Shown here: one piece after another, positions 7,162-42,083 of the stretch
Numbering within the stretch: position 1 is the first letter of the stretch
How the letters are laid out: the number at the start of each line of letters is the position of its first letter
Origin: a virus
Strand: one strand, 5' to 3'
DNA length: 45,006 bases
Virus genome (UHGV): UHGV-0282798
Notes under the pieces: generated by a model
What the model was told of the DNA's origin: nothing
Databases searched by the model: none
What the model saw: only the letters and a program-made list of their open reading frames with translations
Position numbers and translations under genes: made by a program

Positions 7162-7190
7162 TCTGTCTCTCCACTCGTTGGTGTAAATGA

Positions 7191-8672: not shown

Positions 8673-8697
8673 CCCTCTGTCTCGTTTCGATAAGTGA

Positions 8698-9000: not shown

Positions 9001-9006
9001 AGGTGG

Positions 9007-9035
9007 AGCTTAGCATATTTTTAGTGAAAAGTCAA
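9007..9035 (-). promoter_or_regulatory. Sigma70 promoter inside repeat copy 1 (minus strand): TTGACT-17-TGcTAAGCT
   Basis: Reverse complement: -35 TTGACT (9030-9035), 17-bp spacer, extended -10 TGC TAAGCT (9007-9015); identical in copy 2. Confidence 0.5.
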
Positions 9036-9083
9036 TATCAGTAGCATCTTTTGTATCTTAGTAACTTTGTTGTTGCTTTTTGC

Positions 9084-9112
9084 TTGAAGTACCATTATCT
9101 TAGGTACTTCAA
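9084..9112. promoter_or_regulatory. Perfect 10-bp inverted repeat (TTGAAGTACC / GGTACTTCAA)
   Basis: 9084-9093 and 9103-9112 with a 9-nt loop, about 20 bp upstream of the ATG of the first plus-strand replication-block gene. Confidence 0.4.
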
Positions 9113-12305: not shown

Positions 12306-12368
12306 AATAGTACCATATTAATTATTTTAGAAAAGCCCATTGACACGTGAATAGTTCGCTATTATAGT
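12306..12368 (+). promoter_or_regulatory. Promoter TTGACA-17-TATAGT with two AATAG-N4-CTATT dyads
   Basis: -35 TTGACA 12340-12345, -10 TATAGT 12363-12368; dyads AATAGTACCATATT (12306-12319) and AATAGTTCGCTATT (12350-12363); divergent from the repressor start at 12275. Confidence 0.5.
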
Positions 12369-12565: not shown

Positions 12566-13066
12566 ATGTTAGACCAATTCTTAAAATTACTGGAACGTTT
12601 CGTAGTTGCACATGAACTGATTGCTGCGAACAGCGCGAAAGAACCTGTGATTGGCTCCCCGGAACATTTTGCTGAGTTTTGTAAGTTGCAGGGTGTAAGT
12701 GTAAAAGAGGCTTTAACTAAACCTTCAAAAGAAATCCCGGTCGAAGGTGAAGACATCGTCGACACTAAACCGGCAGAAGAAGAGAAGCCAAAACGTAAGA
12801 CGCGTAAAGCTAAAGTAGAGGAACCAACGCCAGAACCGGAAGAAGAGAAAGAAGAAGTCGATTACCAGTCTCTTCGTGACCAGATTCAGGCTATCGATGA
12901 TGCAATTAACGAAGGTCCGAGTGATGCTGCGTGTGACGATTCTGATGAACTGCTGGAAGAGTTCACCGGTAAGAAGATGAAGATTGCCGCGATTAAAGAC
13001 GAAGACCTGGCCGAGTACCTGGAACGCCTCACGGCAATCAAGAACAAGTATTTCGAAGAAGAATAA
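12566..13066 (+). CDS. Acidic hypothetical protein
   Basis: ORF track; RBS AGGAGAGAAACAA nearly identical to that of the preceding small ORF; Glu/Asp-rich with a K/R patch. Confidence 0.5.
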   Translation: MLDQFLKLLERFVVAHELIAANSAKEPVIGSPEHFAEFCKLQGVSVKEALTKPSKEIPVEGEDIVDTKPAEEEKPKRKTRKAKVEEPTPEPEEEKEEVDYQSLRDQIQAIDDAINEGPSDAACDDSDELLEEFTGKKMKIAAIKDEDLAEYLERLTAIKNKYFEEE

Positions 13067-13121
13067 CTACTTAACTTATGGTGCCATCATACGTGAGGGC
13101 ACCAAACTGAGGGTCGGAATT

Positions 13122-13610
13122 ATGGATTGGCATGAGATATTCGACTATGACCGCGCCACAGGAAAATTGTATTGGAAAATACAGCCATCTCATGCGGTTA
13201 AGCCGGGTGAAGAGGCTGGAAGTGTGGGAACTGAGGGTTATGTAGATGTTGGTTTTGCAGGCCGTTTATATAAGGCGCATCGCATTATATGGGATATGAT
13301 GAACACTGACGATAAACTAACGCCGAACCACCAAATAGACCACATAAACCATATCAGAACGGATAATAGGATAGAAAATTTAAGGAAGGTACACCACTGT
13401 GACAACGCCAAAAATCAAAGCATGCGCGTAGACAATACCTCAGGTGTCGCGGGAGTATACTTCGACCGAACTAATAGAAAATGGAGGGCCCGCATTAGGG
13501 CGAGTGGCACGACCATTTGTTTGGGGAGATACGATAGTTTAGAAGAAGCCGCATGCGCACGCCAGAAAGCAGAAGAGATTTACGGGTTTCACAAAAATCA
13601 TGGGGGGTAA
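13122..13610 (+). CDS. HNH-AP2 homing-type endonuclease
   Basis: HQIDHINHIRTDNRIENLR (HNH) followed by AGVYFDRTNRKWRARIRASGTTICLGRYDSLEEAACARQKAEEIYG (AP2). ORF track starts at 12984; ATG 13122 (MDWHEIF) with RBS avoids overlap. Confidence 0.75.
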   Translation: MDWHEIFDYDRATGKLYWKIQPSHAVKPGEEAGSVGTEGYVDVGFAGRLYKAHRIIWDMMNTDDKLTPNHQIDHINHIRTDNRIENLRKVHHCDNAKNQSMRVDNTSGVAGVYFDRTNRKWRARIRASGTTICLGRYDSLEEAACARQKAEEIYGFHKNHGG

Positions 13611-15088: not shown

Positions 15089-15113
15089 CACCTGAATAGC
15101 AAGCTATTATAGT
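15085..15113 (+). promoter_or_regulatory. Promoter TTGACA-17-TATAGT with perfect dyad
   Basis: -35 15085-15090, -10 15108-15113; dyad AATAGCAAGCTATT 15095-15108; about 55 bp upstream of the SSB gene. Confidence 0.5.
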
Positions 15114-15853: not shown

Positions 15854-16009
15854 ATGTTTTTCTGTAAGCACGTTTATCGCTATATGAAACCACTTCCGTG
15901 GTATGCAGATGAGTACCGGGCCGGGTACAGACATGTGTGGATTTGCCGTGATTGTATGAAAATAAGATTAAGCGAAACGAAGGCACTGGATTTAAGGAAA
16001 AAGAAATGA
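15854..16009 (+). CDS. Small Cys/His-containing ORF (51 aa)
   Basis: Own translation MFFCKHVYRYMKPLPWYADEYRAGYRHVWICRDCMKIRLSETKALDLRKKK; stop overlaps the polymerase ATG (ATGA). Confidence 0.3.
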   Translation: MFFCKHVYRYMKPLPWYADEYRAGYRHVWICRDCMKIRLSETKALDLRKKK

Positions 16010-18255
16010 GTTACCTGTTCTTAGACTTTGAAACATTCTCCGAAGCCGATTTGAAGAAAGTCGGTTCCTACGCTTACGCCGAACATCCGTCAACCGAAGT
16101 GCTTATCTGTACATACGCTTTTGACGACGCGCCGGTGCAGGTATGGGATTGCACAGACGGCAGCGACATGCCTGGGGATTTGCATCGCGCGTTACGCCGT
16201 CTGGTGAAGCCAAACAGTCGCATCAAGATGGTGTGGCATAACGGTGGACTTTTCGATAGGCTCATCATGAAGCACTGCTGGGGCTTTGATATTCCGGTAA
16301 GCAACACCATTGATACGATGATTTGGGCGTTTCGTCACGCGTTGCCGGGTTCTCTTGATGCACTGTGCGAAGTGTTGGGCGTATCTGCGGACAACGCAAA
16401 AGACAAACGCGGCAAGGCGCTGATTCAGCGTTTCTCTAAACCGACGCCGAAGAACTACAAAATCCGCCGTTACACCGCAGAAACACACCCGGACGAGTGG
16501 GCACTGTTCATCAAGTACGCCGTTAGCGACATCACTGCGATGCGTGAAGTATTCCATAAGCTGCCGCGGTGGGGTAACTCCGAGTTCGAGGACCGCGTAC
16601 TGGAACTGGACCAGTTAATCAATGACCGGGGGTTTAAGGTTGACGTAGCGCTGGCGGAAGCCGCGATTGCAGCCGTGGAGAAACACAAAGCGCAGTTACA
16701 AGAAGAAGCCCAACGCAAATACGGCGGCTCGCTTACGGGTAAAGACTTTCTGCCTATTCTGCGCGAACTAGCTCCTGCGCACCGCATCCACAACGCACAG
16801 AAGTCTACGCTTAACGACCTGCTGGCGGACGATGATTTACCGGACGACGCACGCACGATTATCGAAATGCGCCTCGGGGCCGCGTCCACAGCGTCAACGA
16901 AATATAACCCGCTACTGTTGGGCCGCTCTTCTGACGACCGACGTCGCGGTTGTATCCAGTACGGCGGGGCCAAGCGTACGTTACGGTTTGCGGGTAAAGG
17001 CTTCCAGCCGCAGAACCTGGCGCGCGGGTACTATCACGACGACCCGAAGAATAAAAAGAAGAAAGTACGTTATGACTGGATGTCAGAGAAGGACTGGTGG
17101 AGAGTAACACACCCATTGTCCTACGGAATCGACCTGTTGTTTAAAGGCCGTGCACACCGCCGTTTTGATGTAGCCAAACTAACGGCATCGACGGTGCGTA
17201 GCTGCATCATACCGGAAGCAGGACATAAGTTTGTCGTCGCCGATTACTCTAACGTTGAAGGCCGTGGTTTGGCGTGGCTGGCTGGAGAAGAAACCGCGCT
17301 CGATACGTTCCGCGCCGGGCTGGATATTTACTGCGTAACCGCGGGTAAGATGTTCGGAATGGACCCTGATTACATTCTCGAAAGCCGTAGTGACCTACGC
17401 CAGATTGGTAAAGCCTGCGAACTGGGTCTCGGCTACGCAGGCGGCGTAGGTGCTTTCGTTCAGTTTGCTAAGAACCTCGGCTTAAACCTTGTTGATATGG
17501 CAAAAACAATGGACGGGACATTCCCCGACCATATATGGGCCGCTACTGCACGCGGCTATGAATGGGCACGTATTCAGGAAGCCAAGCGACCTCCGCGGCC
17601 AGGTGAAAAGGATGACCGACCATCGTATATTCTTGATAAGAAAGTGTGGCGTACCTGCGACGCTATCAAGCGCATGTGGCGTGAGTCACACCCGGAAACA
17701 GTAGCTTTCTGGCGTGATATTGAAGACGCGGCTATGGCGGCTATCCGCAACCCTGGCAAAGAGTTCACCGCAGGCCCGCGCGGCGTTAAGTTTTCGCGTA
17801 ACGTGGAGACAGACAACAACGGCAACAAAGTCGCTGGTTGGTGGTTGCGCATGACGTTGCCGTCAGGTCGCGTTATGTCCTACCCGGGCGTCGGGTTAAG
17901 CGTGTCGAAAGAAACAGACGAAGATGGAAAAGTGTCTACTAACGTGCGCATCAAGTACCAGGGCGAGAACCAGCTAACCCGTCAGTGGGGTTTCCAATAC
18001 ACCTACTCTGGTAAACTGGTGGAAAACTGCACTCAGGCGCTATGCCGTGATTTGCTGGCTAATGCGCTGCTGAACGTCGAAGCAAACGGCTATCCAATTG
18101 TACTTCATGTCCACGATGAGATTATCTGCGAGACACCAGACACTCCCGAGTACACGGTGGCTGAACTTGAGCGGTTGATGTGCGAATTACCGGAATGGGC
18201 CGAGGGGTTCCCTCTTGTAGCGGAAGGTCAGGAGTTAAAACGTTATGCTAAGTAA
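16006..18255 (+). CDS. DNA polymerase, family A, with 3-5 exonuclease domain
   Basis: Exo motif FLDFETFS; Pol A motif A DYSNVEGR, motif B RQIGKACELGLGYAGG, motif C VLHVHDEI. Track ORF begins at an in-frame TTG (15952); ATG 16006 has an AAGGA RBS. Confidence 0.85.
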   Translation: MSYLFLDFETFSEADLKKVGSYAYAEHPSTEVLICTYAFDDAPVQVWDCTDGSDMPGDLHRALRRLVKPNSRIKMVWHNGGLFDRLIMKHCWGFDIPVSNTIDTMIWAFRHALPGSLDALCEVLGVSADNAKDKRGKALIQRFSKPTPKNYKIRRYTAETHPDEWALFIKYAVSDITAMREVFHKLPRWGNSEFEDRVLELDQLINDRGFKVDVALAEAAIAAVEKHKAQLQEEAQRKYGGSLTGKDFLPILRELAPAHRIHNAQKSTLNDLLADDDLPDDARTIIEMRLGAASTASTKYNPLLLGRSSDDRRRGCIQYGGAKRTLRFAGKGFQPQNLARGYYHDDPKNKKKKVRYDWMSEKDWWRVTHPLSYGIDLLFKGRAHRRFDVAKLTASTVRSCIIPEAGHKFVVADYSNVEGRGLAWLAGEETALDTFRAGLDIYCVTAGKMFGMDPDYILESRSDLRQIGKACELGLGYAGGVGAFVQFAKNLGLNLVDMAKTMDGTFPDHIWAATARGYEWARIQEAKRPPRPGEKDDRPSYILDKKVWRTCDAIKRMWRESHPETVAFWRDIEDAAMAAIRNPGKEFTAGPRGVKFSRNVETDNNGNKVAGWWLRMTLPSGRVMSYPGVGLSVSKETDEDGKVSTNVRIKYQGENQLTRQWGFQYTYSGKLVENCTQALCRDLLANALLNVEANGYPIVLHVHDEIICETPDTPEYTVAELERLMCELPEWAEGFPLVAEGQELKRYAK

Positions 18256-18611: not shown

Positions 18612-18892
18612 CCCCGGAAGGCAAGATTCAGAAATACGCAAAAGAGAGGTTCGAGGCCCTGGGCGGCCTCGTTAGAAAATTGTCGTACGAAAATAGAGTA
18701 GGCGCTCCTGACCTGCTGGTGATTCTCCCCTGGAGCATCGTCTGGTTCGTCGAGGTGAAGAAAGACGAAAACACGAAGCCAGACCCGCACCAGCTACGTG
18801 AGCACGAGCGGATGCGCAAACGCGGTGCAAATGTTTTTGTCGTTGGTTCGTTTAAACAGGTTGACGACCTAATAGCGAACTATTATAGTTAG
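18608..18892 (+). CDS. VRR-NUC domain nuclease
   Basis: GAPDLLVIL ... FVEVKK ... Q pattern typical of VRR-NUC. Track ORF 18593; ATG 18608 (MTPEGKIQ). Confidence 0.55.
   Translation: MTPEGKIQKYAKERFEALGGLVRKLSYENRVGAPDLLVILPWSIVWFVEVKKDENTKPDPHQLREHERMRKRGANVFVVGSFKQVDDLIANYYS
18861..18889 (+). promoter_or_regulatory. Promoter TTGACG-17-TATAGT with dyad
   Basis: -35 18861-18866, -10 18884-18889; dyad AATAGCGAACTATT 18871-18884; lies inside the 3-prime end of the VRR-NUC gene. Confidence 0.45.
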
Positions 18893-28272: not shown

Positions 28273-28923
28273 ATGATACCCACAGAAAAAGTAGCTAAGA
28301 GTATGTGGCTGCGCGCGAATTATCCCGCGAACAAAAGCAGCAAAACTAGGCGTGCAACTATATGCGATTTTGGCATAAATGATGCCGATTATGTGGTTAG
28401 TCCTAAGATAAACGGCAACCGTGAGCCGTGTCCTGCGTACGCTACGTGGCGAGGGATGATCCAACGTTGCATAGACGTCGAGTATAAAAACAAAAGACCT
28501 GCATACAAGGATGTAACTGTGTGGCATGGGTGGCAAAGGTTTATGTCCTTCCGTAGATGGTGGCTTTGTAATTACGTAGAAGGATGGGAACTAGATAAGG
28601 ACTTATTCTCTGGTATTAATAAGATATACAGCCCCACCACTTGCATTTTTATTCCGCAATGGTTGAATGTTTTTCTACTGGAAAGGAAAAATAGTGGGTC
28701 ACCTACAGGTGTTTTTTATGAAGAATCAAGAGGTAAATTTAAAGCCTCAGTGAAATATGAGAAAAAAACTATTAATCTAGGACGTTTTGAAACTCAGGAA
28801 GAAGCGCTAGATGCCTACATCGCTGAAAAGATAAGGATAGCAGAATCAAGAAGATGCGAGATAGAGGCGATAAGAGAAGGTATGTTCGCCCGCGTTATCG
28901 CCTTGATAAAAGAGGGGCGTTAG
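28273..28923 (+). CDS. AP2-domain protein, putative free-standing endonuclease with atypical N-terminal domain
   Basis: C-terminal AP2-like GVFYEESRGKFKASVKYEKKTINLGRFETQEEALDAYIAEK; Trp-rich N-terminal domain (YATWRGMIQRC ... VWHGWQRF) with no HNH motif visible; opposite strand to flanking tail genes. Confidence 0.5.
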   Translation: MIPTEKVAKSMWLRANYPANKSSKTRRATICDFGINDADYVVSPKINGNREPCPAYATWRGMIQRCIDVEYKNKRPAYKDVTVWHGWQRFMSFRRWWLCNYVEGWELDKDLFSGINKIYSPTTCIFIPQWLNVFLLERKNSGSPTGVFYEESRGKFKASVKYEKKTINLGRFETQEEALDAYIAEKIRIAESRRCEIEAIREGMFARVIALIKEGR

Positions 28924-28932: not shown

Positions 28933-31257
28933 TTAATACCCCGGCTGACCGCGAGTAGAGCGGCGAGCTTTAGAAATCGGTGAGTTGTTATCCTGTAACT
29001 GCGACGCTACTGTTTCACTGATTATAATACGTAAACGCCCTTCGTCATCACGTTCTGTTACAGCAGAATCTACGCGCCCCGTAGTGTTATTAACTATAGT
29101 GACGTTATCACCGCCGGACTGGCCACCGTTTTGCCCCATAATCTCTTTCATCTGCTGCGCAGTTCGTACGCGCGATGCGCCAGCAGGCATGATAACTTCC
29201 GGTTTGCCGCGTTCTGCGATGGTAGACATCTGCCCCGCTGATAACTGACCGCCCTGCTCACGTGCCGAGCGGATTTTGGCGATATTAGCCAGCCCCGCGG
29301 CAACGGCAGTACCTGCGGCAACCGGTGCCAGGAATGGGCCGACAACCGGTATCGCTGCGGTAGACTTATATGCTTCGATAGCCGAGGTGTATGTTGCGAT
29401 AGTGGCCTGGGCAATAGCAAACGCTTTATACGCGGTGGACGCCTCGCCAAATGCCGTTTTAGCATTAGCTGCCATGTCACCGAAAGAACTACCTAAAGCC
29501 TCGGCGCGCTTCGTAGCATACTGCTCATTGATAGCGTTAAGCGCCGCCTGATACTGTTCCTCGTTAATAAGCCCCTGTTCTCGATACTTATCAGCGACAG
29601 CCAGTTTCTGCTGTTCCTGGATGTCGAGGAGCTCAAGCTCAGCGGCGTTCTGCCCCATAATCTGGGCCATGAAGTCATCGCCTTTCTGCTGCTTTTCCTG
29701 CTGCTCTTTTCTTTTCTTATCCAGTTCTTCCTGTCTGGCCTGCTCGGCTGTGAGCATAATTTGAGTTTTGGCGTTTTCGTATTGCTGCTGGCTTATCGTT
29801 CCTGCGCGGTTGAACTCTTCAAGTTTTGCCAGTTTCTGCTCTTCGGCCGCCGTGATGCGAGAAATTTCATCTCCGGTTGTACGGTCAACCGTAGCAAGGA
29901 AATCTTCCGCGGCTTTCTTCTGGCGTTGTGCCGCCGTTTCTTCACGTTTGGCCTGCGCCGCCAGACGTTTCTCGTTCGATTTAGCCTCGCGGTCTGCCTT
30001 CTCTTTCTCGGTCTTGTCAATGCGGGCGATGTCTTGCTGTGCTTCCGTGTCACGAGCAGCATTATACGCGGCGATCTGTTCTTTGGTTACAGCTTCACGT
30101 TTAGCAAACGCCTGCTTATCCAGTTCAGCTTGCGCCCGGATGCGCTCACGGTCGCTTAAGATGGCGATTTGCTGATTCTTGACGATAGCTTCGTTCTGCT
30201 CCTGGAACCTCTGCGTGGTTGAGTTAACGTTACGACCGAGATTCTTTTGGGCTTCCGCCGCTGCGTTTGCGGACTTCTCCGCGTTCTCCAGTGCTGTGGC
30301 GTTCTTGTTGGCGTTGTCTGTCAGGCGGATAAGTTCCGGATTCAACTGTTTTGTGTTACCGAGCCAGTCGGTAAACACATCGGCGATGCGGCGGGCATTC
30401 TCGGCGGTTGGCTCTTTGTTAAACGCGCTCTGCGCCGCTATCATCTCCAGCGCCTGGTCACGGTTAACCCCGAACTTACTGCTAAGCTCCGCTATATTCT
30501 GCGCCAGCATGTTGACGCCTACGATGTTACCCTCGTAAGTGCCGCCAAGTTTTTCTAACGTGTCGCCTACATCCGCACCCTTAGAGACCAATGCATCGTA
30601 CTGGCTAATAGCGGATGCCGTGGAGGCTTTCCATGTCTCCCATGACTCGGCGTCCTCGCGGACAGCTTTAGCTGTTTGCTGCGCGATAAGGTCTGCGTTA
30701 GCCTTAGCCAGAGCAAGCTGAGTCTCCGCCGCTTCTCTGCTGATTTGGGTAAGCTGGATAAGGCCGTCTGTCAGTTCGAGGGAGCCAGATGCCGTTTGCT
30801 GGAAGGTGTCTTTTAACTGTTTCTGCGCGGCTTCCAGGTCTTTTGAACTGCCTTCTGCTTCGGTTAGCGATTTGTACAGGACACCGCCGATTGCCGAAGC
30901 AAGAGCAATCACAGCCCCGAGCACCGCGCCACCAGGTCCGAAAGCACCAGCAAGCTGCGAACCTTGTTGCCCGATTGCTACGAATGCAGACGTGCCGGAT
31001 TGCAACTGGACTACCATGTCCTGCACCTGGAAGCCAACCTGCCCTGCAGCGTTACGGAACTTAGCGAAACCGTCGGAGGCCGCTTTAGACGTAGCGGAGT
31101 TTACTTTATTAACGTCCGGCGTTAGTTTGTTTACGGATGTGTCCGCCCGGTCTGCGGATGCCGCCATAGCGTCAAGCTGTTTAGCGGCCGCATCAGCGCC
31201 TTCTGTTTTTACTCTGGCAATTAGGGAAGCCGTATCAGCCATCTTCTCTGCCCTCAA
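28933..31257 (-). CDS. Tail tape measure protein
   Basis: 774 aa, Ala/Gln/Glu/Lys-rich coiled-coil composition; between chaperones and distal tail genes. Track start is TTG; ATG at 31240-31242 with GAGGG RBS. Confidence 0.8.
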   Translation of the reverse strand: MRAEKMADTASLIARVKTEGADAAAKQLDAMAASADRADTSVNKLTPDVNKVNSATSKAASDGFAKFRNAAGQVGFQVQDMVVQLQSGTSAFVAIGQQGSQLAGAFGPGGAVLGAVIALASAIGGVLYKSLTEAEGSSKDLEAAQKQLKDTFQQTASGSLELTDGLIQLTQISREAAETQLALAKANADLIAQQTAKAVREDAESWETWKASTASAISQYDALVSKGADVGDTLEKLGGTYEGNIVGVNMLAQNIAELSSKFGVNRDQALEMIAAQSAFNKEPTAENARRIADVFTDWLGNTKQLNPELIRLTDNANKNATALENAEKSANAAAEAQKNLGRNVNSTTQRFQEQNEAIVKNQQIAILSDRERIRAQAELDKQAFAKREAVTKEQIAAYNAARDTEAQQDIARIDKTEKEKADREAKSNEKRLAAQAKREETAAQRQKKAAEDFLATVDRTTGDEISRITAAEEQKLAKLEEFNRAGTISQQQYENAKTQIMLTAEQARQEELDKKRKEQQEKQQKGDDFMAQIMGQNAAELELLDIQEQQKLAVADKYREQGLINEEQYQAALNAINEQYATKRAEALGSSFGDMAANAKTAFGEASTAYKAFAIAQATIATYTSAIEAYKSTAAIPVVGPFLAPVAAGTAVAAGLANIAKIRSAREQGGQLSAGQMSTIAERGKPEVIMPAGASRVRTAQQMKEIMGQNGGQSGGDNVTIVNNTTGRVDSAVTERDDEGRLRIIISETVASQLQDNNSPISKARRSTRGQPGY

Positions 31258-31507
31258 ATATTCCGTCTAAGCCCATGATAACCTCGGCTTCGAACAAACT
31301 TATGCCGTAACCGGCGACATCACGAAACGCTACCAAATCTTGCCATTTGAGCGCATCGCGCGGGATTATAACGATAGTATCATCTGTTTCGCGCTGTAGG
31401 AATTTAATGGCACGGTATTTCTCGAACACGTCGATAAGAGAAACGGGGCATTCTGGCCCCGTCGCTTCTTTCATCTGCGGTTCTTTAATCACACCCATTG
31501 CGATCAA
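31235..31507 (-). CDS. Tail assembly protein (gpT-position ORF)
   Basis: 90 aa between chaperone and tape measure; track start is TTG; its frame is -1 relative to 31597-32013 but is closed by a stop at 31544-31546. Confidence 0.35.
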   Translation of the reverse strand: MIAMGVIKEPQMKEATGPECPVSLIDVFEKYRAIKFLQRETDDTIVIIPRDALKWQDLVAFRDVAGYGISLFEAEVIMGLDGIFEGREDG

Positions 31508-31596
31508 AGCTGCTTGATGCCCCGCCGCGATGTCGTCGAATTGCTTACGTTTCTGGCGGTCGACAAAGCACCATTGCGCAAATTCATACAGCGCTT

Positions 31597-32013
31597 TTAC
31601 TTTTCCGAGAGTTTCTCGCGGCTATCGGTGTGGTGTTTAACTACGGCTTCTGCCAGTCCGCTGTACTGGTCTAACAGGTTAGCCAGCGCCTCTTTGCTGA
31701 ACGGCTCGTCGAATGACCAACCGGTGACGATGTCGACAGCGAGCTGCTTGTTCAGGTCCATCACCCGCCAGCCCTTCTCATCGTTATAGCGCGCCCAGTT
31801 ATTCAGCGCCTCGCACTCTTTATCTAATGGCGCAAGTTCTTCCGTAAGGCGTCGAATTGCCGTTGTGTAGGCGCGGCCTGCACGAACACCCGCATCACAA
31901 TCGGGGCCAATGACCTGCAGCCATTCGCCGGAGTCTTTACCGCTCGGCAGGAGGATAGGCATTTTAGTACCAGTAGCGTGGCGGTCGGCAAAATAAAAAT
32001 CAGAAAGTTTCAT
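31597..32013 (-). CDS. Tail assembly chaperone (gpG-like)
   Basis: 138 aa; position upstream of the tape measure; acidic C-terminal half. Confidence 0.5.
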   Translation of the reverse strand: MKLSDFYFADRHATGTKMPILLPSGKDSGEWLQVIGPDCDAGVRAGRAYTTAIRRLTEELAPLDKECEALNNWARYNDEKGWRVMDLNKQLAVDIVTGWSFDEPFSKEALANLLDQYSGLAEAVVKHHTDSREKLSEK

Positions 32014-32120
32014 TCTTTGATCCTTTGGTTAAGAGGTTACAGGTTAAGGTTGACGCGCCAGACGGGAACCACCCGCTTTTCGTGTGCGACACTAGGCGCA
32101 AACTTATTCTAGCACACTAC

Positions 32121-32149
32121 TTGCACACCCCAATATAATAGGGTACTAT
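32121..32149 (+). promoter_or_regulatory. Promoter TTGCAC-17-TACTAT with dyad (island promoter)
   Basis: -35 32121-32126, -10 32144-32149; dyad AATAGGGTACTATT 32137-32150; same TTGCAC/TACTAT class as 7191 and 8698. Confidence 0.5.
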
Positions 32150-32179
32150 TCACCTACACCAACAATGGAGGGATTTAAA

Positions 32180-32371
32180 ATGTCAAGTTTACCAGTTTCC
32201 TTAATTCTGTTTGCACTTCTCGCTTATTTCGCGCCTTTCCTGGTTGCGTACTTCCGTAATCATAAAGCGAAGTTGGCAATATTCATGGCTAACCTGTTTC
32301 TTGGCTGGGTTCTGCTGCCGTGGGTATTTATTTTAATATGGGCTTGCAACTCGAACGTGAAAGAGAAGTAG
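32180..32371 (+). CDS. Imm-like small membrane protein (superinfection-immunity-type, putative)
   Basis: AYFAPFLVAYFRNHKAKLAIFMANLFLGWVLLPWVFILIWA fits the pattern I recall for the superinfection-immunity family. Track ORF 32165; ATG 32180 has a GGAGGG RBS. Confidence 0.45.
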   Translation: MSSLPVSLILFALLAYFAPFLVAYFRNHKAKLAIFMANLFLGWVLLPWVFILIWACNSNVKEK

Positions 32372-32409
32372 GCTACTATAAGACAAATCCTAAACACGAG
32401 GAAGTAAGC

Positions 32410-33540
32410 ATGGCCCATAAGAAAATAACCGACGAACAGTTACAGGAAGAATTGAACGCCGGAATGAAGAATGCAGACATCGCCCGTAAATACGGCATCT
32501 CAGACCGCGTAATTCGTATCCGTAAAGCGAAGCTGGCTAAGAAAGGCGTAGGCCACGGGCGTGACGTTAGTCACCTTGTCCCGGACGGCTACAAAATTAA
32601 AGGGACCTCGTCACTGGTGGACGAGTTCGGCAACACTAAACTTCAATGGGTTAAGACCGACACCGATGCCGAACGTCAGGTCGAGTTGATGAAAGCCGTA
32701 ATCGAAGGCATGAAGTCGGAGATTACTCCAGTTGCACCAGTTAAAGCCGTTCGCGCCAAACGTGACGATAAACTACTCAATCTTTACACGGTATCTGATT
32801 TCCATCTCGGTATGCTGGCCTGGGCCGACGAGAGCGGCGACGACTGGGATATGAAGATTGCGGAAGACCTGTTCTCTCGCTGGTTCGATGCTGCGTTCCA
32901 GAAAGCGCCAGATGCAGGAACAGGAGTTATTAACCTGCTTGGCGACCTTGCGCACTTCGATAGTCTGGATGCCGTTACACCTGCAAGCGGCCATGTTCTT
33001 GACGCGGACACGCGCTATCAGAAACTGGTCCGCTACATGATTCGTATGGTTCGCCGTGTTATTGATATGGCGCTGGTTAAGCATAAAAATGTTCGCTTGC
33101 TTATCGTGCAAGGGAACCACGACGAAAGTGGAATGATTTGGTTAGCTGAGATGTTCAGTACGCTGTACGACAATGAGCCGCGTGTGTTTGTCGATACTTC
33201 ACCAGATGTTTACAAGATGGTGCAACACGGCAAAACGACGCTGTTCTTTACACACGGGCATAAATGCCGGTTTGAGGTTGTCGAACCAATTATGATAGCT
33301 AAGTTCAGAAAAGCATTTGGAGAAAGCGAGTACAGTTACGCGCATGTAGGGCATCTCCACCATCAAAAGATTGTAGAAAGTAGGAATATGGTAGTGGAGC
33401 AACATCGCACTCTCGCGGCGAAAGATGCATATGCTTCCCGCGGCGGGTGGATGTCTAAGAGGTCCGCTAATGTCATAACCTATAGTTCAGAGTTCGGGGA
33501 AGTAGGTAGGCTTTCAATCTCACCGGAGATGCTAAGATGA
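32410..33540 (+). CDS. HTH domain fused to calcineurin-like metallophosphoesterase
   Basis: N-terminal HTH (MKNADIARKYGISDRVIRIRKAKL); phosphoesterase motifs SDFHLG, LGDLAHFD, VQGNHDE, FTHGH, HVGHLHH. Track ORF 32320; ATG 32410 (MAHKKITDEQ) preceded by GAGGAAG. Confidence 0.65.
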   Translation: MAHKKITDEQLQEELNAGMKNADIARKYGISDRVIRIRKAKLAKKGVGHGRDVSHLVPDGYKIKGTSSLVDEFGNTKLQWVKTDTDAERQVELMKAVIEGMKSEITPVAPVKAVRAKRDDKLLNLYTVSDFHLGMLAWADESGDDWDMKIAEDLFSRWFDAAFQKAPDAGTGVINLLGDLAHFDSLDAVTPASGHVLDADTRYQKLVRYMIRMVRRVIDMALVKHKNVRLLIVQGNHDESGMIWLAEMFSTLYDNEPRVFVDTSPDVYKMVQHGKTTLFFTHGHKCRFEVVEPIMIAKFRKAFGESEYSYAHVGHLHHQKIVESRNMVVEQHRTLAAKDAYASRGGWMSKRSANVITYSSEFGEVGRLSISPEMLR

Positions 33541-34007
33541 AGTACCTTGATGTTTCAAAACAATTTAAATACTGCCCTGATACGGGGCAGGTTACCAGGA
33601 TATCTACTGGTGCTGAGGTTGGTACGGTTGGTGTAAGAGGATATCTGTGCTGCGGTATGGGTGGTAAAACAGTATATGTCCACCGCGTAGCATGGTGTCT
33701 TTATAATAAATGTGACTTAGACAGGAAAACACAAATAGACCACATAAACCATAACAGGCTAGACAATAGAATAGAAAATCTACGCGCCACCGACAATACA
33801 GGGAACAGTAAAAATAAAACTATGAGAAAGATAAATAAATCCGGGGCTACAGGTGTAAGTTTCCACAAAGCCGCGGGTAAGTGGCGCGCGTTTATAAAAG
33901 TTAACTACAAACAAGTGCATTTAGGGCTTTACGACGATTTTGATGTAGCGGTTGCCGCGCGTAAAGCCGCTGAGAGTAAATACGGTTTTCATGAAAACCA
34001 TGAGTAG
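33537..34007 (+). CDS. HNH-AP2 homing-type endonuclease
   Basis: HRVAWCLYN ... QIDHINHNRLDNRIENLR (HNH) and GVSFHKAAGKWRAFIKVNYKQVHLGLYDDFDVAVAARKAAESKYG (AP2); paralog of 13122-13610. Confidence 0.75.
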   Translation: MKYLDVSKQFKYCPDTGQVTRISTGAEVGTVGVRGYLCCGMGGKTVYVHRVAWCLYNKCDLDRKTQIDHINHNRLDNRIENLRATDNTGNSKNKTMRKINKSGATGVSFHKAAGKWRAFIKVNYKQVHLGLYDDFDVAVAARKAAESKYGFHENHE

Positions 34008-34018
34008 GAGAGCTATTT

Positions 34019-34249
34019 ATGACTTCAAAATATAACCGCACAATGACAAATACCCACGGCAGCACTATGACAGTAGACGTTTATGATGTGCTGCGGGCCT
34101 TCGACATCCGCGACCCAGCACTGCAACACGCTTTGAAGAAATTATTGTGCATGGGCTTGCGTGGACACAAAGACACCGGGACGGACTTAGCGGAAGCAAT
34201 TGAAAGTCTGGAGAAGTTACGAGAGTACCGGAGTAATATTGATGAGTGA
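34019..34249 (+). CDS. Hypothetical small protein
   Basis: ORF track. Confidence 0.4.
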   Translation: MTSKYNRTMTNTHGSTMTVDVYDVLRAFDIRDPALQHALKKLLCMGLRGHKDTGTDLAEAIESLEKLREYRSNIDE

Positions 34250-34418
34250 AAATATTATGAAAACGATATATGTAATCCGTGTATACGACGAAGAATGGGA
34301 CGAGTGGGTTGATATTTACGCTGTAGGTAGTAAGGAAGAGGCCTCTAAAGAGATGGCAGAACGGAGTGACCGAGGTCAGTTAACTAACTTCTACGAAATG
34401 CCATTCAAAAGTGAGTAA
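34200..34418 (+). CDS. Hypothetical small protein
   Basis: ORF track; true start probably an internal ATG (MSENIMKT or MKTIYVIRV). Confidence 0.35.
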   Translation: MKVWRSYESTGVILMSENIMKTIYVIRVYDEEWDEWVDIYAVGSKEEASKEMAERSDRGQLTNFYEMPFKSE

Positions 34419-34421
34419 GAA

Positions 34422-34448
34422 AAGGCCCCGAAAGGGGCCTTAGTTTTA
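34422..34448. terminator. Terminator hairpin closing the plus-strand island
   Basis: Stem AAGGCCCC (34422-34429) / GGGGCCTT (34434-34441), loop gaaa, then AGTTTTA; sits between the island and the convergent major tail gene. Confidence 0.6.
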
Positions 34449-35618
34449 TGCGTAGGTGATACGCTGGATAACAATAGACGACTGGTACTGATTGCCGGTA
34501 GCCTGGCCTTCGATGGACTGAGTGATTGACTCTGGTCCGCCAATCTCTGGCGTAACCGCCGTAAGTTCTGCGCGTTTCAGGCTGAAAGACATAGCCCCGT
34601 TTACCCCCGCCAGAATAGAGTTAATCTCTACCTGCTGTTCGTTGATAAACTTCTGAATCATCGCCATGTCGTACAGCTTACCGGAGATAGAGAAGGTGTT
34701 AGCCGCGCGACCACGTTCCACGAACGCAACGCTACTGTTGCCGAGTTCGAACTGCGCAGAAGCACCGTTGTCGTTTGTGATGGTCAGAGTATCGCAACGC
34801 AACGGCGTAGAACCGTCGAACACGGACACATCTACGGATGAGAACGGCTCATCGGTAAACGTCACCTGAGAGAAATCAGAACCTGCTGGCGGTGCAGAAA
34901 GAATCTCCTGACTTAGACCGATGAACGGGAAGCTGCCTGTCACCATCGCGTTTACGGCCTGTTCAATGGTGAATCCGGAGATTTCCACGCCTTTGGTCAA
35001 CATGTACGCGTCCGGGTTCCCGCACTGTCCTTTGAACCATGTCAGGATGGAGAACGTCTTACATGCGTTACTGGTTTCCAGTTTGTCGCCGGTTTTAGCG
35101 TCGGTGGTTACAGTCTCTGCTGTCAGCGTGTGCTGAATGCCCGCACCCGTAACTACAAGAGCAGAAACCGCGGTCACGATAAACGGTTTTGCGTTGTCGC
35201 CGGTTAAGTCGGTGAACGCAATCAGGTCGCCAACTTCTACACCGTCAGTAATGAAGCTACCGGCAGCGCGGGTGAATGTTTTACCTGCTGGGGCGACCGT
35301 AATTTCAGCACCCGTAATCTCCACCCCATCCTGCCACGTAGAAGTCATCGCGCCCGCGAGGAAATCATCCTGGCTACGCGAGCTAAGTTCGATGGCGTAC
35401 TCCCCGCTAACCTGCTTATTACCAGTGCGGATGGATGTAGTTTCACGGCTGCCGTCGAGTTCGTTGGAAGTCAGCGCATCGCGGGTTACGGCTGGAACGC
35501 CGCCCGTGTTACGCAACGGCGACCAGACCGGGTTAGTCGGTGTTACGCCCGGGGTATTTTCCACCACATAGAATTGCGCGGTATTCGCGCCCTTAAAAGG
35601 AGTTGTAGCCATATTCAC
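34446..35618 (-). CDS. Major tail protein (putative)
   Basis: 390 aa, Thr/Ser/Gly/Ala-rich; follows tail-completion genes. Positional call. Confidence 0.55.
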   Translation of the reverse strand: MNMATTPFKGANTAQFYVVENTPGVTPTNPVWSPLRNTGGVPAVTRDALTSNELDGSRETTSIRTGNKQVSGEYAIELSSRSQDDFLAGAMTSTWQDGVEITGAEITVAPAGKTFTRAAGSFITDGVEVGDLIAFTDLTGDNAKPFIVTAVSALVVTGAGIQHTLTAETVTTDAKTGDKLETSNACKTFSILTWFKGQCGNPDAYMLTKGVEISGFTIEQAVNAMVTGSFPFIGLSQEILSAPPAGSDFSQVTFTDEPFSSVDVSVFDGSTPLRCDTLTITNDNGASAQFELGNSSVAFVERGRAANTFSISGKLYDMAMIQKFINEQQVEINSILAGVNGAMSFSLKRAELTAVTPEIGGPESITQSIEGQATGNQYQSSIVIQRITYA

Positions 35619-41047: not shown

Positions 41048-41279
41048 GGGTAATCACCTCTGATTTCGTCTTGCCTTCGTTGTCGGCGGCTGCGGCCTTT
41101 GACTCATCCTGCTGCTGCCGTTGTGTCTTCTTAGCTAACTCAGCCTTCGCTTTTTGGGTTTGTTCGGTAACGAGGTCAAGCCGTCCCGCATCCCAGCCGC
41201 GGTTGTATTGGTACCCCCCGTACAGCCATACCGTAAGCAAGCCTGCCGCCGTTAGTGTTGCTGTGTTGCTTAGATTCAT
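40893..41279 (-). CDS. i-spanin (Rz-like)
   Basis: N-terminal TM (TATLTAAGLLTVWLYGGY) then a charged helical periplasmic region; overlaps the Rz1-like ORF. Confidence 0.55.
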   Translation of the reverse strand: MNLSNTATLTAAGLLTVWLYGGYQYNRGWDAGRLDLVTEQTQKAKAELAKKTQRQQQDESKAAAADNEGKTKSEVITREVVKYIKTPSRSVCTFDPERVQLKSRAVANANSIPGYDNDAAAVQAGTAK

Positions 41280-41397
41280 GTTTCCCCTTTCTCGATAAGT
41301 AAAGCCCCGCCTTAAAGCGGGGCGCTAGTCCTTATCATTTAAACATAGAAACGGCGTAATCTCAGTAAACCAGTTACTCTTTACACAAGCAAAAGAG

Positions 41398-41532
41398 TAT
41401 GGCCCTTCCGAACGCGTCAGCGTAACTACACTCAGGACTTACGTCCCGCTCCGTTACCTGCCCGCGCCGCGGTCGCTCGTTCATACTTCACAAGCTCAGG
41501 TGGAGCTTATCATATTTTTAGTGAAAAGTCAA
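41398..41532. repeat. Repeat copy 2 of the ~135-bp promoter-plus-leader element
   Basis: Aligns with 8900-9035; lies between the terminator at 41591-41617 and the Rz start at 41279. Confidence 0.85.
41504..41532 (-). promoter_or_regulatory. Sigma70 promoter inside repeat copy 2 (minus strand): TTGACT-17-TGaTAAGCT
   Basis: Reverse complement: -35 41527-41532, -10 41504-41509 with upstream TG. Confidence 0.5.
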
Positions 41533-41590
41533 CTATTCGAATAGTTTATTCCAACATTTACAATTGATTGGAATAACTGGAATAATTACG

Positions 41591-41617
41591 AGCCATAAAA
41601 AGCCCCTTTCGGGGCTT
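41591..41617 (-). terminator. Intrinsic terminator (mainly minus strand)
   Basis: Stem AAGCCCC (41600-41606) / GGGGCTT (41611-41617), loop tttc; on the minus strand it is followed by UUUUAUGG. Confidence 0.55.
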
Positions 41618-41621
41618 CAGT

Positions 41622-42083
41622 TTATTCTGGCTTAGTCACCTTCGCCGCTTTGCTTACACCCTCTACACCATCGGCATCGGTAACTTTAACGAAGTATTCA
41701 CCGACCACATTAACCGTCAGAGACAGAGCTTCTTCTGGGGCGTTGACTACTTCCTTACCGTCTTTGTACCAGGTCAGCACATACGGCGCTTTGCCCGCCT
41801 TAACTTCGACAGTGATAGTTGCGCTGCCGTCTGCCAGTTCCGCATCCTGCGGTTGCACAGAGAAATACACGTCGCCAGCGTCCGCCAGATACGGAATCTC
41901 ATAAAGCATACCCGCCGCGGGCAGCGCGATGCCTGTTTTATCCGCAAACGGCATATCGTCTACCGGTGTACCGAGTACACTTTCGTCTTCAATAAACACC
42001 ACGTTCTCACCAGAGCCGGATACACGGGCGTACTGGACTACGCGGCGCGCGGGTACATCGGTTACTTTGAAAAAGCCCATCAT
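41622..42083 (-). CDS. Ig-like domain protein
   Basis: GKAPYVLTWYKDGKEV ... GEYFVKVTD looks like an I-set/Big-type domain; position after the Mu-F-like gene. Confidence 0.45.
   Translation of the reverse strand: MMGFFKVTDVPARRVVQYARVSGSGENVVFIEDESVLGTPVDDMPFADKTGIALPAAGMLYEIPYLADAGDVYFSVQPQDAELADGSATITVEVKAGKAPYVLTWYKDGKEVVNAPEEALSLTVNVVGEYFVKVTDADGVEGVSKAAKVTKPE

What the first reader, a model, noticed from the sequence alone, without database searches (positions are those of the whole stretch)
32121..34448. Self-contained plus-strand accessory island inserted in the middle of the tail gene module
Between the tail assembly chaperone (31597-32013) and the major tail gene (34446-35618), both on the minus strand, lies a 2.3-kb plus-strand unit. 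It has its own dyad-containing promoter (32121-32149) and terminator (34422-34448). It encodes an Imm-like two-TM membrane protein, a 376-aa HTH-metallophosphoesterase fusion, an HNH-AP2 endonuclease and two small ORFs. The combination of a mobile endonuclease, a membrane immunity-like protein and an unusual phosphoesterase under a phage promoter is the signature of a moron or anti-defence / superinfection-exclusion cassette rather than of morphogenesis genes.
Basis: partly seen in the sequence, partly recalled or inferred. Interest (0 to 1): 0.7.

Follow-up and report, generated by a model that had tools for sequence, protein, structure and literature searches.

The report
Opposite-strand gene cassette in phage tail module
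The 2.3-kb plus-strand unit is real, but it is a standard, already-sequenced feature of Kagunavirus/Jerseyvirus phages: a self-transcribed cassette sitting in a hot spot between the tail-tube and tail-chaperone genes, built around a fixed DNA-enzyme-like phosphoesterase and flanked by swappable accessory genes, including a mobile homing endonuclease.

Summary
Between the tail chaperone (31597-32013, -) and the tail tube gene (34446-35618, -) lie five plus-strand genes, with a promoter and a bidirectional terminator. The window is a Kagunavirus (Guernseyvirinae), about 93% identical to deposited E. coli phages that carry the same unit.

- Accessory side: related phages have an empty tube/chaperone junction (93 nt), a minimal promoter-Imm-terminator moron, or other cargo there. 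Within Kaguna/Jerseyviruses the first gene (Imm-like or a 108-aa exported-looking protein) and the genes after the phosphoesterase are swapped freely.
- Mobile element: the HNH gene is 96-98% identical in 39 E. coli and Salmonella phages, with a co-converted flank.
- Core side: the HTH-metallophosphoesterase is present in every Kagunavirus locus found through the tube gene. Its catalytic motifs are invariant. It belongs to a family found in over 2,000 phage genomes, often next to DNA or nucleotide-metabolism genes. Its best fold matches are Mre11/SbcD.

I read the unit as an early-type, self-contained non-structural cassette: exclusion protein + DNA/nucleotide-processing enzyme + homing endonuclease. 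Its parts are ordinary. The enzyme's function has not been tested.

The parts
31597..32013 (-). Left flank: tail assembly chaperone gene. Its start marks a recombination boundary, because two or more TAC/TMP alleles occur among relatives.
   Evidence: PF08748 E 1e-8, phrog_15027 E 8e-65. TAC identity among relatives is either >95% or ~46-51%.
32121..32149 (+). Sigma-70-type promoter: -35 TTGCAC (32121-32126), 17-nt spacer, -10 TACTAT (32144-32149).
   Evidence: Read from the sequence. Scores 8/12, below the scan threshold. The same TTGCACA...ATAATAGGnTACTATTCA architecture occurs at 7190 and 8697, in front of minus-strand clusters of small ORFs. Conserved about 105 nt from the TAC start in 45/48 loci, with the Jerseyvirus variant TTGCAT-N17-TATTAT.
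32136..32149 (.). Palindrome AATAG-N4-CTATT overlapping the spacer and -10: a likely operator for an unidentified phage regulator.
   Evidence: Motif found 8 times in the window against 0.31 expected. It occurs exactly once per Guernseyvirinae locus, always at this promoter, and never in the Dhillonvirus, Drexlerviridae or marine loci. Matches the PHIRE 'phage promoter' consensus reported for fBC-Eco01 (PMC9825357).
32165..32371 (+). Slot 1 cargo: Imm-family protein with two predicted transmembrane segments (68 aa, or 63 aa from ATG 32180).
   Evidence: PF14373 at 48.3 bits (cut-off 27.9); phrog_1039 'immunity to superinfection', E 2e-23. Present in 32/53 related loci and mutually exclusive with a 108-aa protein that has a hydrophobic N-terminus (13/53).
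32410..33540 (+). Core gene: HTH (sigma-70 region 4/LuxR-like) + beta-hairpin linker + calcineurin-like metallophosphoesterase, 376 aa.
33257..33976 (.). Horizontally transferred tract: the HNH gene plus about 280 nt of the 3' end of the phosphoesterase gene (co-conversion tract).
   Evidence: 93-100% nt identity to Salmonella phage S100 over this tract against 45-90% outside it. HNH+ genomes carry a recoded last ~85 nt of the phosphoesterase gene compared with HNH- genomes.
33537..34007 (+). Free-standing HNH (HNH_3 + AP2-like) homing endonuclease. Its start overlaps the phosphoesterase stop codon (ATGA).
   Evidence: PF13392 E 3e-10, phrog_99 E 1e-55. Found in only 39 phage records (29 Salmonella, 10 Escherichia), all 96-98% identical and all next to the phosphoesterase gene. 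Inserted exactly between the phosphoesterase and ORF4 genes.
34019..34249 (+). Slot 2 cargo: 76-aa protein of unknown function (phrog_2452) with a DUF3310/T7-gp1.7-like fold.
   Evidence: phrog_2452 E 2e-36. No Pfam hit. AF2 pLDDT 88. Foldseek gives distant hits to DUF3310, SaV-like and 'nucleotide kinase' proteins. Mutually exclusive with a HAD_PNKP phosphatase + dNMP-kinase-like pair: 30 / 16 / both 0.
34242..34418 (+). Small acidic ORF (58 aa from ATG 34242, or 53 aa from 34257), sporadic among relatives.
   Evidence: Present in 9/53 loci. No family match.
34422..34441 (.). Bidirectional intrinsic terminator hairpin AAGGCCCC-GAAA-GGGGCCTT, shared with the convergent tail tube gene.
   Evidence: Scored on both strands. 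Conserved in all 5 compared relatives, and duplicated around the extra Roi/Rha-like gene in S100. The same hairpin type follows the relocated phosphoesterase gene in L038 and the minimal Imm moron in L113.
34446..35618 (-). Right flank: tail tube (major tail) protein gene.
   Evidence: PF18906 Phage_tube_2 E 9e-38.

Best explanation
The region is an autonomously transcribed, non-structural gene cassette. It occupies an insertion hot spot between the tail tube and tail chaperone genes of Guernseyvirinae-type siphoviruses and runs antisense to the late operon.

It has a fixed frame:
- a host-type promoter whose -10 and spacer are overlapped by a phage-specific palindrome, shared with the promoters of the small-ORF (early-looking) clusters;
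- one fixed core gene;
- a bidirectional terminator.

It also has two exchangeable slots.
- Slot 1 holds a small membrane or exported-looking protein, here a T4-Imm-family protein with two predicted transmembrane segments. I infer it acts at the envelope against superinfecting phage.
- The core gene encodes an N-terminal HTH fused to a catalytically intact Mre11/SbcD-like metallophosphoesterase. I infer it is a DNA-directed nuclease or phosphodiesterase of phage DNA/nucleotide metabolism (host-DNA breakdown, or end processing for replication or recombination) that works without a Rad50/SbcC partner.
- Slot 2 holds nucleotide-handling or selfish genes. Here these are a recently acquired HNH homing endonuclease, which most likely cuts the 3' end of HNH-less phosphoesterase alleles and spreads by co-conversion, a 76-aa DUF3310/gp1.7-like protein, and a tiny acidic ORF.

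Shown: anatomy, conservation, hot-spot behaviour, HNH mobility, intact catalytic motifs and fold.
Inferred: expression timing, the Imm function, the enzyme's substrate, and the HNH target site.
For: Identity and synteny:
- The window is a Kagunavirus, and the same unit lies at the same place in 417 phage records (annotations).

Promoter and terminator:
-, and PMC9825357.

Hot spot:
- Loci anchored on the tube gene show an empty 93-nt junction (L130/L131), a minimal promoter-Imm-terminator unit (L113), or 0.4-2 kb of other opposite-strand cargo without the phosphoesterase.

The phosphoesterase is fixed but relocatable:
- It is present in every Kagunavirus locus (tube >=87% identical) that extends across the gap.
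- In L090 it has been replaced by a 60%-identical allele rather than lost.
- In L038/L068 it stands alone on the opposite strand, with a similar hairpin, inside the head-gene module.

Slot variability:
- (Imm 32, 108-aa protein 13, both 0; ORF4 30, HAD+kinase 16, both 0).

Enzyme:
- Invariant metal-binding motifs.
- No Rad50/SbcC-like gene among the nine largest ORFs of the replication region that were scanned.
- Neighbours elsewhere: SSB; thymidylate synthase and dCMP deaminase; DNA ligase; helicase, VRR-NUC and Dam.
- Alternative slot-2 cargo is a HAD_PNKP phosphatase (PF25109, E 2e-20) with a dNMP-kinase-like protein (phrog_139, E 2e-44).
- ORF4's fold is distantly like DUF3310/T7 gp1.7-type nucleotide kinases.

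HNH mobility:
-.
Against: - No expression data of usable resolution. The one Kagunavirus RNA-seq paper (PMC12645636) classes the Imm-like gene as 'late', together with the DNA polymerase and methylases. That fits neither a simple early nor a structural-late label.
- Pfam metallophosphoesterase hits are below their gathering scores.
- No Mre11 capping domain and no Rad50 partner.
- In Dhillonvirus and Drexlerviridae the gene lies next to lysis or terminase genes, which says little about DNA metabolism.
- Imm function is assumed from family membership only.
- The HNH cleavage site was not mapped.
Confidence: 0.55

Rival explanations
1. One reading: the whole unit is an optional moron / anti-defence / superinfection-exclusion island. 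Every gene, the phosphoesterase included, serves conflict with other phages or with host immunity.
For: - Own promoter and terminator.
- Empty or differently filled site in relatives.
- Imm-family gene.
- Variable cargo, including Rha/antirepressor-like genes.
- Lower G+C than the flanks.
Against: - The phosphoesterase is fixed in all Kagunavirus and Jerseyvirus loci seen. It is replaced or relocated rather than lost.
- Its family is present in over 2,000 phages of many lineages, mostly among replication or nucleotide-metabolism genes.
- No PADLOC hit except the generic homing endonuclease.
Confidence: 0.2
2. The phosphoesterase is a small-molecule phosphodiesterase that destroys nucleotide immune signals (cyclic oligonucleotides, cNMPs) or alarmones. 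That would make it a counter-defence enzyme rather than a DNA enzyme.
For: - No capping domain and no Rad50 partner.
- Wide spread among virulent phages.
Against: - The fused HTH and the conserved beta-hairpin linker argue for a nucleic-acid substrate.
- Neighbours are DNA-metabolism genes.
- Kagunaviruses carrying it show no notable resistance in published defence panels (PMC11990801, tested RM and Old mainly).
Confidence: 0.12
3. The HTH-phosphoesterase is mainly a transcription factor, for example a late-gene activator or the protein that binds the AATAG-N4-CTATT palindrome. The esterase domain would be sensory or vestigial.
For: - The N-terminal domain is scored as sigma-70 region 4 / LuxR-type HTH, with a weak hit to a late transcriptional activator PHROG.
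- The gene lies at the boundary before lysis or packaging genes in Drexlerviridae and Dhillonvirus.
- Some records annotate it as a transcriptional regulator.
Against: - All metal-binding and catalytic residues are invariant down to 28% identity.
- The Campylobacter phage homolog lacks the HTH altogether.
- The palindrome is confined to Guernseyvirinae, whereas the protein is not.
Confidence: 0.08
4. The core and slot-2 genes form a Pnkp-like nucleic-acid end-healing set (phosphoesterase + kinase + 3'-phosphatase) that repairs tRNA or DNA cut by host nucleases.
For: - In 16/53 loci the phosphoesterase is followed by a HAD_PNKP phosphatase and a P-loop kinase-like protein.
- From established knowledge, bacterial Pnkp (Clostridium thermocellum) uses a calcineurin-type phosphoesterase domain for end healing.
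- The Campylobacter phage homolog is adjacent to a ligase.
Against: - The window itself lacks the HAD/kinase pair.
- The kinase-like protein matches dNMP kinases, not polynucleotide kinases.
- No ligase turned up among the window ORFs that were scanned.
- The HTH is unexplained.
Confidence: 0.05

Closest known systems
The same cassette in deposited Kagunavirus and Jerseyvirus genomes (e.g. Escherichia phages 590B, NTEC3, EC3-1, fBC-Eco01; Salmonella phages SETP13, S100)
   Same: Same position between the chaperone and tube genes, same strand, and the same phosphoesterase (85-98% aa). Promoter palindrome and terminator are conserved. The HNH is 96-98% identical where present.
   Different: The window combines the TAC/TMP allele that elsewhere goes with the 108-aa protein with the Imm gene instead. 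Otherwise it is only a particular choice of slot cargo.
Morons of lambdoid phages (promoter-gene-terminator units inserted between late genes)
   Same: Own promoter and terminator, and insertion between two adjacent late genes. Empty sites occur in relatives. The minimal form (L113) is promoter + one membrane-protein gene + terminator. G+C is lower than in the flanks.
   Different: The phages are virulent, so there is no prophage expression. The unit carries a lineage-fixed enzyme gene. Its promoter belongs to the phage's own regulatory motif family.
T4 Imm (superinfection immunity protein, Pfam PF14373)
   Same: Small inner-membrane-type protein with a Pfam match above the gathering score.
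   Different: 63-68 aa against 83 aa in T4 (figure from my own knowledge). The phage is a siphovirus with a different injection apparatus. Function is untested.
Mre11/SbcD nucleases (and the PolD DP1 / Pol delta B-subunit phosphoesterase domains)
   Different: No capping domain and no Rad50/SbcC partner gene seen. It has an N-terminal HTH and a family-specific conserved loop, VTPxSGHxLDADxR. Sequence identity is only 13-17%.
Free-standing HNH homing endonucleases of T-even, T5-like and SPO1-like phages (I-HmuI / Mob-type)
   Same: HNH_3 catalytic motif with a C-terminal AP2-like DNA-binding domain. Intergenic insertion next to a conserved gene, sporadic distribution, near-identity across divergent genomes, and a co-converted flank.
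   Different: Cleavage site and homing were not demonstrated. A second, only 36-43% identical HNH family uses the same and a neighbouring junction in other relatives.

Membership tests
Imm_superinfect (PF14373, T4 Imm family) | Profile match above the curated gathering score | tested here: met
   48.3 bits against a cut-off of 27.9, E 9e-13. phrog_1039, E 2e-23.
Imm_superinfect (PF14373, T4 Imm family) | Small protein with two membrane-spanning segments | tested here: met
   Translation shows hydrophobic stretches at about residues 8-30 and 36-60, separated by RNHKAK. No dedicated TM predictor was run.
Imm_superinfect (PF14373, T4 Imm family) | Blocks DNA entry of superinfecting phage | not testable with these tools
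   Needs expression and plating or DNA-injection assays.
Calcineurin-like metallophosphoesterase superfamily | Five metal-binding motifs: DxH, GDxx(D/H), GNH(D/E), H, GHxH | tested here: met
   D130-F-H132, G178-D179-LAH182, G235-N236-H237-D238, H282-G-H284 and G314-H315-L-H317 are invariant or nearly so in 13- and 59-sequence alignments.
Calcineurin-like metallophosphoesterase superfamily | Pfam profile match above the gathering score | tested here: not met
   Metallophos_2 at 25.3 bits (cut-off 27) and Metallophos at 19.5 (cut-off 21.5). Both are just under threshold. Membership rests on the motifs and the fold.
Calcineurin-like metallophosphoesterase superfamily | Alpha/beta sandwich phosphoesterase fold | tested here: met
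Mre11/SbcD nuclease family | Nuclease domain followed by a capping domain | tested here: not met
   The phosphoesterase domain spans about 119-376, and only 185-190 residues align to Mre11/SbcD chains of 319-476 residues. No extra C-terminal domain is present.
Mre11/SbcD nuclease family | Partner Rad50/SbcC-type ATPase encoded alongside | tested here: not met
   Not among the neighbouring genes in any lineage inspected. The nine largest ORFs of the replication region are helicase-primase, a phrog_3127 protein of unknown function, HNH, exonuclease, gp2.5-like SSB, DNA polymerase, methylase, helicase and terminase. Not every ORF in the window was scanned.
Mre11/SbcD nuclease family | Mn-dependent exo/endonuclease activity on DNA | not testable with these tools
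   Biochemical assay needed.
Free-standing HNH homing endonuclease | Intact HNH catalytic motif | tested here: met
   PF13392 HNH_3 at 39.8 bits (cut-off 24.8). The motif H..(N14)..DHINHNRLDNRIENLR is present.
Free-standing HNH homing endonuclease | Sporadic presence at a fixed site, much more similar between genomes than its flanks | tested here: met
   39 of about 417 related records, all 96-98% identical and all adjacent to the phosphoesterase gene. The tract 33257-33976 is 93-100% identical to a Salmonella phage against 45-90% outside it.
Free-standing HNH homing endonuclease | The HEG-plus allele differs from the HEG-minus allele at the presumed target (self-protection / co-conversion) | tested here: met
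   The last ~85 nt of the phosphoesterase gene are recoded in HNH+ genomes but still encode a similar peptide. The cleavage site itself was not determined.
Moron (Hendrix-type) | Promoter + gene(s) + terminator inserted between genes that are adjacent in related phages | tested here: met
   The empty junction is 93 nt in L130/L131. The minimal unit is seen in L113. The window has a promoter at 32121-32149 and a terminator at 34422-34441.
Moron (Hendrix-type) | Dispensable, variably present within the lineage | tested here: inconclusive
   True for slot 1 and slot 2 genes. False for the phosphoesterase within Kaguna/Jerseyvirus. Dispensability was not tested experimentally.
DUF3310 / T7 gp1.7-type nucleotide kinase (for ORF 34019-34249) | Pfam/sequence profile match | tested here: not met
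   No Pfam hit at E<=1 other than noise. No precomputed Pfam domain in 35 homologs.
DUF3310 / T7 gp1.7-type nucleotide kinase (for ORF 34019-34249) | Shared fold | tested here: inconclusive
   Foldseek hits to DUF3310, SaV-like and 'nucleotide kinase' phage proteins have E 8e-3 to 3e-2 and TM 0.6-0.7. This is a small helical domain.

The most novel reading that the evidence does not exclude
The HTH-metallophosphoesterase (PHROG 704; thousands of sequence clusters; core in T1-like, Dhillonvirus, Guernseyvirinae and many marine phages) is an uncharacterised, Rad50-independent enzyme with a role that no model phage has revealed. It could be a DNA-guided nuclease that couples host-DNA scavenging to nucleotide kinases. 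Alternatively, it could be a phosphodiesterase that erases nucleotide immune signals. It travels as a self-promoted, self-terminated one-gene cassette that can re-insert antisense at different points of the structural operon: the tube/chaperone junction here, and the head module in L038/L068.
Probability: 0.2. Interest if true: 0.6.

Novelty: already known. Interest (0 to 1): 0.27.

Why it matters
As a sequence feature it adds little. The same cassette, with the same annotations, is present in hundreds of deposited phage genomes.

Three points of modest value come out of the comparison.
1. The tube/chaperone junction of this siphovirus group is a well-sampled natural insertion hot spot, running from an empty site through a one-gene moron to a five-gene cassette. 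That could guide payload insertion in Kagunavirus chassis phages used for engineering.
2. The HNH element offers a clean natural example of homing across genus and host boundaries (E. coli and Salmonella phages), with a visible co-conversion tract.
3. The fixed HTH-phosphoesterase is one of the most widespread phage enzymes for which I found no experimentally assigned function. The small, easily rebooted Kagunavirus genome would be a convenient place to determine it.

Tried and rejected
- **Sigma-70 consensus scan.** It did not score the proposed promoter (8/12). I kept the promoter only because of its conservation and its two sister copies.
- **Does the phosphoesterase's HTH bind the promoter palindrome?** I tested co-distribution. 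The palindrome is absent from all non-Guernseyvirinae loci that carry the protein, so there is no support.
- **PDB sequence search with the phosphoesterase.** Nothing significant. NCBIfam gave only noise, including a 0.39 E-value touch of PdeM.
- **PADLOC.** No defence-related hit except the generic homing endonuclease.
- **Rfam on the whole window.** No hit.
- **ORF4 as DUF3310.** Not confirmed by Pfam or by precomputed domains of its homologs. Only a distant fold resemblance remains.
- **Literature.**
  - I found no functional study of the phosphoesterase in Guernseyvirinae, Drexlerviridae or Dhillonvirus.
  - The genome-reduction paper (PMC9825161) concerns a Skatevirus, and its supplements are not held.
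  - The anti-Tmn paper concerns a different gene.
  - The K1B4 transcriptome has time points too coarse to be useful.
- **48/48 presence of the phosphoesterase in the first locus set.** This was circular, because those loci were fetched through that protein. I repeated the test with loci fetched through the tube gene, which revealed the phosphoesterase-less relatives.
- **afdb50 fold library.** Unavailable.


Full report
**What the window is**

A megablast of 31500-35000 finds 417 phage records (286 Salmonella, 111 Escherichia). The best are Escherichia phages 590B, NTEC3 and SCS92, at about 93% identity, all classified Guernseyvirinae/Kagunavirus. The window is therefore a Kagunavirus genome. 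Its replication module lies on the plus strand at about 9.3-21.2 kb: helicase-primase, exonuclease, gp2.5-like SSB, DNA polymerase A, methylase and helicase. A long minus-strand structural block runs from about 44.7 to 21.6 kb.

**Check of the observation**

- 31597-32013 (-) is a tail assembly chaperone and 34446-35618 (-) is a Phage_tube_2 tail tube protein.
- Five plus-strand ORFs lie between them:
  - an Imm_superinfect protein with two predicted transmembrane segments (PF14373, above the gathering score);
  - a 376-aa protein with an N-terminal HTH and a calcineurin-like phosphoesterase domain (phrog_704, E 1e-165);
  - an HNH_3 + AP2-like endonuclease;
  - a 76-aa ORF (phrog_2452);
  - a 53/58-aa ORF.
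- The hairpin AAGGCCCC-GAAA-GGGGCCTT at 34422-34441 scores as a terminator on both strands.
- The proposed promoter, TTGCAC-N17-TACTAT at 32121-32149, matches the consensus in only 8 of 12 positions and was not reported by the scan. Other evidence supports it, as described next.
- G+C is lower in most of the unit (0.42-0.47 against 0.51-0.56) and GC skew reverses.

**The promoter and its dyad**

The dyad is the palindrome AATAG-N4-CTATT, overlapping the spacer and the -10. The 16-mer AATAGTACCCTATTAT (up to 3 mismatches) occurs 8 times in the window against 0.31 expected.

Three copies (7190, 8697, 32135) share the full TTGCACA-N7-ATAATAGGnTACTATTCA layout. The other two stand in front of minus-strand runs of small ORFs of unknown function, which is the usual look of early genes.

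The fBC-Eco01 paper reports the same motif as seven PHIRE-predicted 'phage promoters' (PMC9825357).

In related loci the promoter-palindrome sits about 105 nt from the chaperone start in 45 of 48 cases, whichever gene follows. Jerseyviruses have TTGCAT-N17-TATTAT with the palindrome retained. The palindrome occurs once per Guernseyvirinae locus and never in the loci from other phage groups that carry the phosphoesterase. It is therefore a lineage-specific regulatory site and is not tied to that protein's HTH.

**Is the unit accessory?**

My first comparison used 71 IMG/VR loci fetched through the phosphoesterase. In 48 loci that contain both flanking tail genes, the phosphoesterase is always present, while everything around it varies.
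- The upstream slot holds the Imm-like gene (32 of 53 loci), or a 108-aa protein with a hydrophobic N-terminus (13), or other small hydrophobic proteins. It never holds two of them.
- The downstream slot holds the 76-aa ORF (30), or a HAD_PNKP phosphatase plus a dNMP-kinase-like P-loop protein (16). It never holds both.
- On top of these come sporadic HNH genes, Rha/antirepressor-like genes and tiny ORFs.

That sample was circular with respect to the phosphoesterase, so I repeated the test with 60 loci fetched through the tube protein.
- All loci with a tube protein at least 87% identical that extend across the gap carry the phosphoesterase between the tube and chaperone genes.
- Twenty-five more distant relatives (tube 56-81% identical) do not. 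Two have a 93-nt junction with nothing in it (L130, L131). Several have a single opposite-strand gene for a small membrane protein. L113 is a textbook moron: TTGCGC-N17-TATATT, an Imm-like gene, and the same kind of GGCCCC hairpin. Others have 1.1-2 kb of unrelated opposite-strand cargo.
- In L038 and L068, whose capsid protein is 92% identical to the window's, the phosphoesterase gene (83%) stands alone on the opposite strand, followed by a similar hairpin, between two head-module genes. The window has a 340-nt non-coding gap at that site.
- In L090 the phosphoesterase is only 60% identical, inside an otherwise 96-100% identical cassette.

So the junction is an insertion hot spot and the cassette behaves as a unit. 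Within Kagunavirus and Jerseyvirus, however, the phosphoesterase is kept, replaced or moved. It is not lost.

**The phosphoesterase**

- Distribution: tblastn finds homologs in 2,042 phage records, including Guernseyvirinae, Dhillonvirus (~73%), Drexlerviridae (~42-48%), Vibrio, Microcystis, N4-like roseophages and Campylobacter myoviruses.
- Family size: a profile search of 1.84 billion cluster representatives gives 6,095 clusters, nearly all 370-400 aa.
- Catalytic residues: across sequences down to 28% identity, the metal-binding residues D130, H132, D179, N236-H237-D238, H282 and H317 are invariant. So is a family-specific loop, VTPxSGHxLDADxR.
- HTH: marine homologs have the N-terminal domain scored as sigma-70 region 4. 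The Campylobacter homolog lacks it.
- Missing Mre11 features: there is no capping domain and no Rad50/SbcC gene was seen.
- Neighbours in other lineages: SSB; thymidylate synthase and dCMP deaminase; DNA ligase; helicase, VRR-NUC and Dam. In Dhillonvirus it lies between the lysis genes and terS.

Two further points suggest nucleotide handling. The alternative downstream cargo is a PNKP-type phosphatase with a dNMP-kinase-like protein. The 76-aa ORF's fold (pLDDT 88) distantly resembles DUF3310/T7-gp1.7-type nucleotide kinases.

Taken together, the most economical reading is a DNA/nucleotide-metabolism enzyme. This is an inference. I found no experimental study.

**The HNH gene**

- Its 471 nt are found in only 39 records (29 Salmonella, 10 Escherichia phages), all 96-98% identical and all next to the phosphoesterase gene.
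- It lies exactly between the phosphoesterase stop and the ORF4 start.
- HNH+ genomes carry a recoded final ~85 nt of the phosphoesterase gene.
- Against Salmonella phage S100, identity is 93-100% from 33257 to 33976 and 45-90% elsewhere in the unit.

This is the signature of a homing endonuclease with a co-conversion tract that has moved recently between genera. The window holds two more HNH genes, at 12984-13610 and 28273-28923.

**How it most likely works**

- Shown: a promoter/operator, five genes and a bidirectional terminator form a unit antisense to the late operon. Slot cargo is exchangeable. The core enzyme is catalytically intact. The HNH is mobile.
- Inferred:
  - The unit is transcribed by host RNA polymerase together with the small-ORF clusters that share its promoter type, and is later shut down through the palindrome.
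  - The Imm-like protein acts at the inner membrane against superinfection.
  - The phosphoesterase processes DNA or nucleotides for replication.
  - The HNH cuts HNH-less alleles near the 3' end of the phosphoesterase gene.
- Caveat: the only transcriptome I found classes the Imm-like gene as 'late', together with the polymerase, but with 20-40 min sampling (PMC12645636). It neither confirms nor excludes this.

**Comparison with what is known, and verdict**

Each part belongs to a known kind: moron-type cassette, T4 Imm family, calcineurin-like phosphoesterase with an Mre11/SbcD-like fold, and free-standing HNH homing endonuclease. The very same arrangement is already present and annotated in hundreds of public genomes, and one announcement explicitly notes the T4-Imm-like gene (PMC6763661).

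Its 'accessory island' reading is correct for the site and the flanking slots, but not for the phosphoesterase, which is a lineage-fixed gene of a huge phage family.

Novelty is low. What remains of interest is the unknown function of that enzyme and the tidy natural history of the hot spot.

Noticed in passing
window 28273-28923 (+): A second opposite-strand insert in the tail module: a 216-aa HNH/AP2-type endonuclease (phrog_953, E 6e-65) between a minor tail gene and the tape measure gene.
   Followed up: partly
window 12984-13610 (+): A third HNH endonuclease gene, in the same PHROG (99) as the island's HNH, sits just upstream of the exonuclease gene in the replication module.
   Followed up: no
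window 15952-18255 (+), residues 485-579: The DNA polymerase A ORF has an internal stretch matching an endonuclease PHROG (phrog_93, E 2e-13). This may be an intein or an inserted endonuclease domain. A genome announcement notes that Guernseyvirinae often carry inteins (PMC6763661).
   Followed up: no
window 41279-41622: A 340-nt non-coding gap in the head module, with GC-rich hairpins at both ends and clustered GGAATAAY repeats (41545-41586). In relatives L038/L068 the homologous site, with the same repeats, carries the phosphoesterase gene.
   Followed up: partly
window 7190-7205, 7506-7521, 8697-8712, 12306-12321, 12350-12365, 15095-15110, 18869-18884: Further copies of the AATAG-N4-CTATT promoter/operator motif (8 in all against 0.31 expected). 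Those at 7190 and 8697 have the full promoter layout in front of minus-strand clusters of small ORFs of unknown function.
   Followed up: partly
window 28933-32013 (-) compared with L001-L142: The chaperone and tape-measure genes occur in at least two very different alleles (>92% or ~40-50% aa identity) among otherwise similar phages. The window pairs the allele that elsewhere accompanies the 108-aa slot-1 gene with the Imm gene, so a recombination joint lies at about 32014-32160.
   Followed up: partly
L090 about 7985-9112 (-): The phosphoesterase is only 60% identical to the window's, inside a cassette whose Imm (96%), ORF4 (100%) and tube (97%) genes are near-identical. This is allelic replacement of the core gene.
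   Followed up: no
L082 (Salmonella phage S100) 3220-3244 and 3998-4031: Two copies of the terminator hairpin bracket an extra Roi/Rha-like gene downstream of ORF4, as if a one-gene moron had been added to the cassette together with its own terminator.
   Followed up: no
window 31235-31507 and 31597-32013 (-): The two chaperone ORFs together cover one 259-position PHROG profile (phrog_15027: 1-138 and 170-259) but are separated by 89 nt here. The usual G/GT-type frameshift arrangement was not examined.
   Followed up: no
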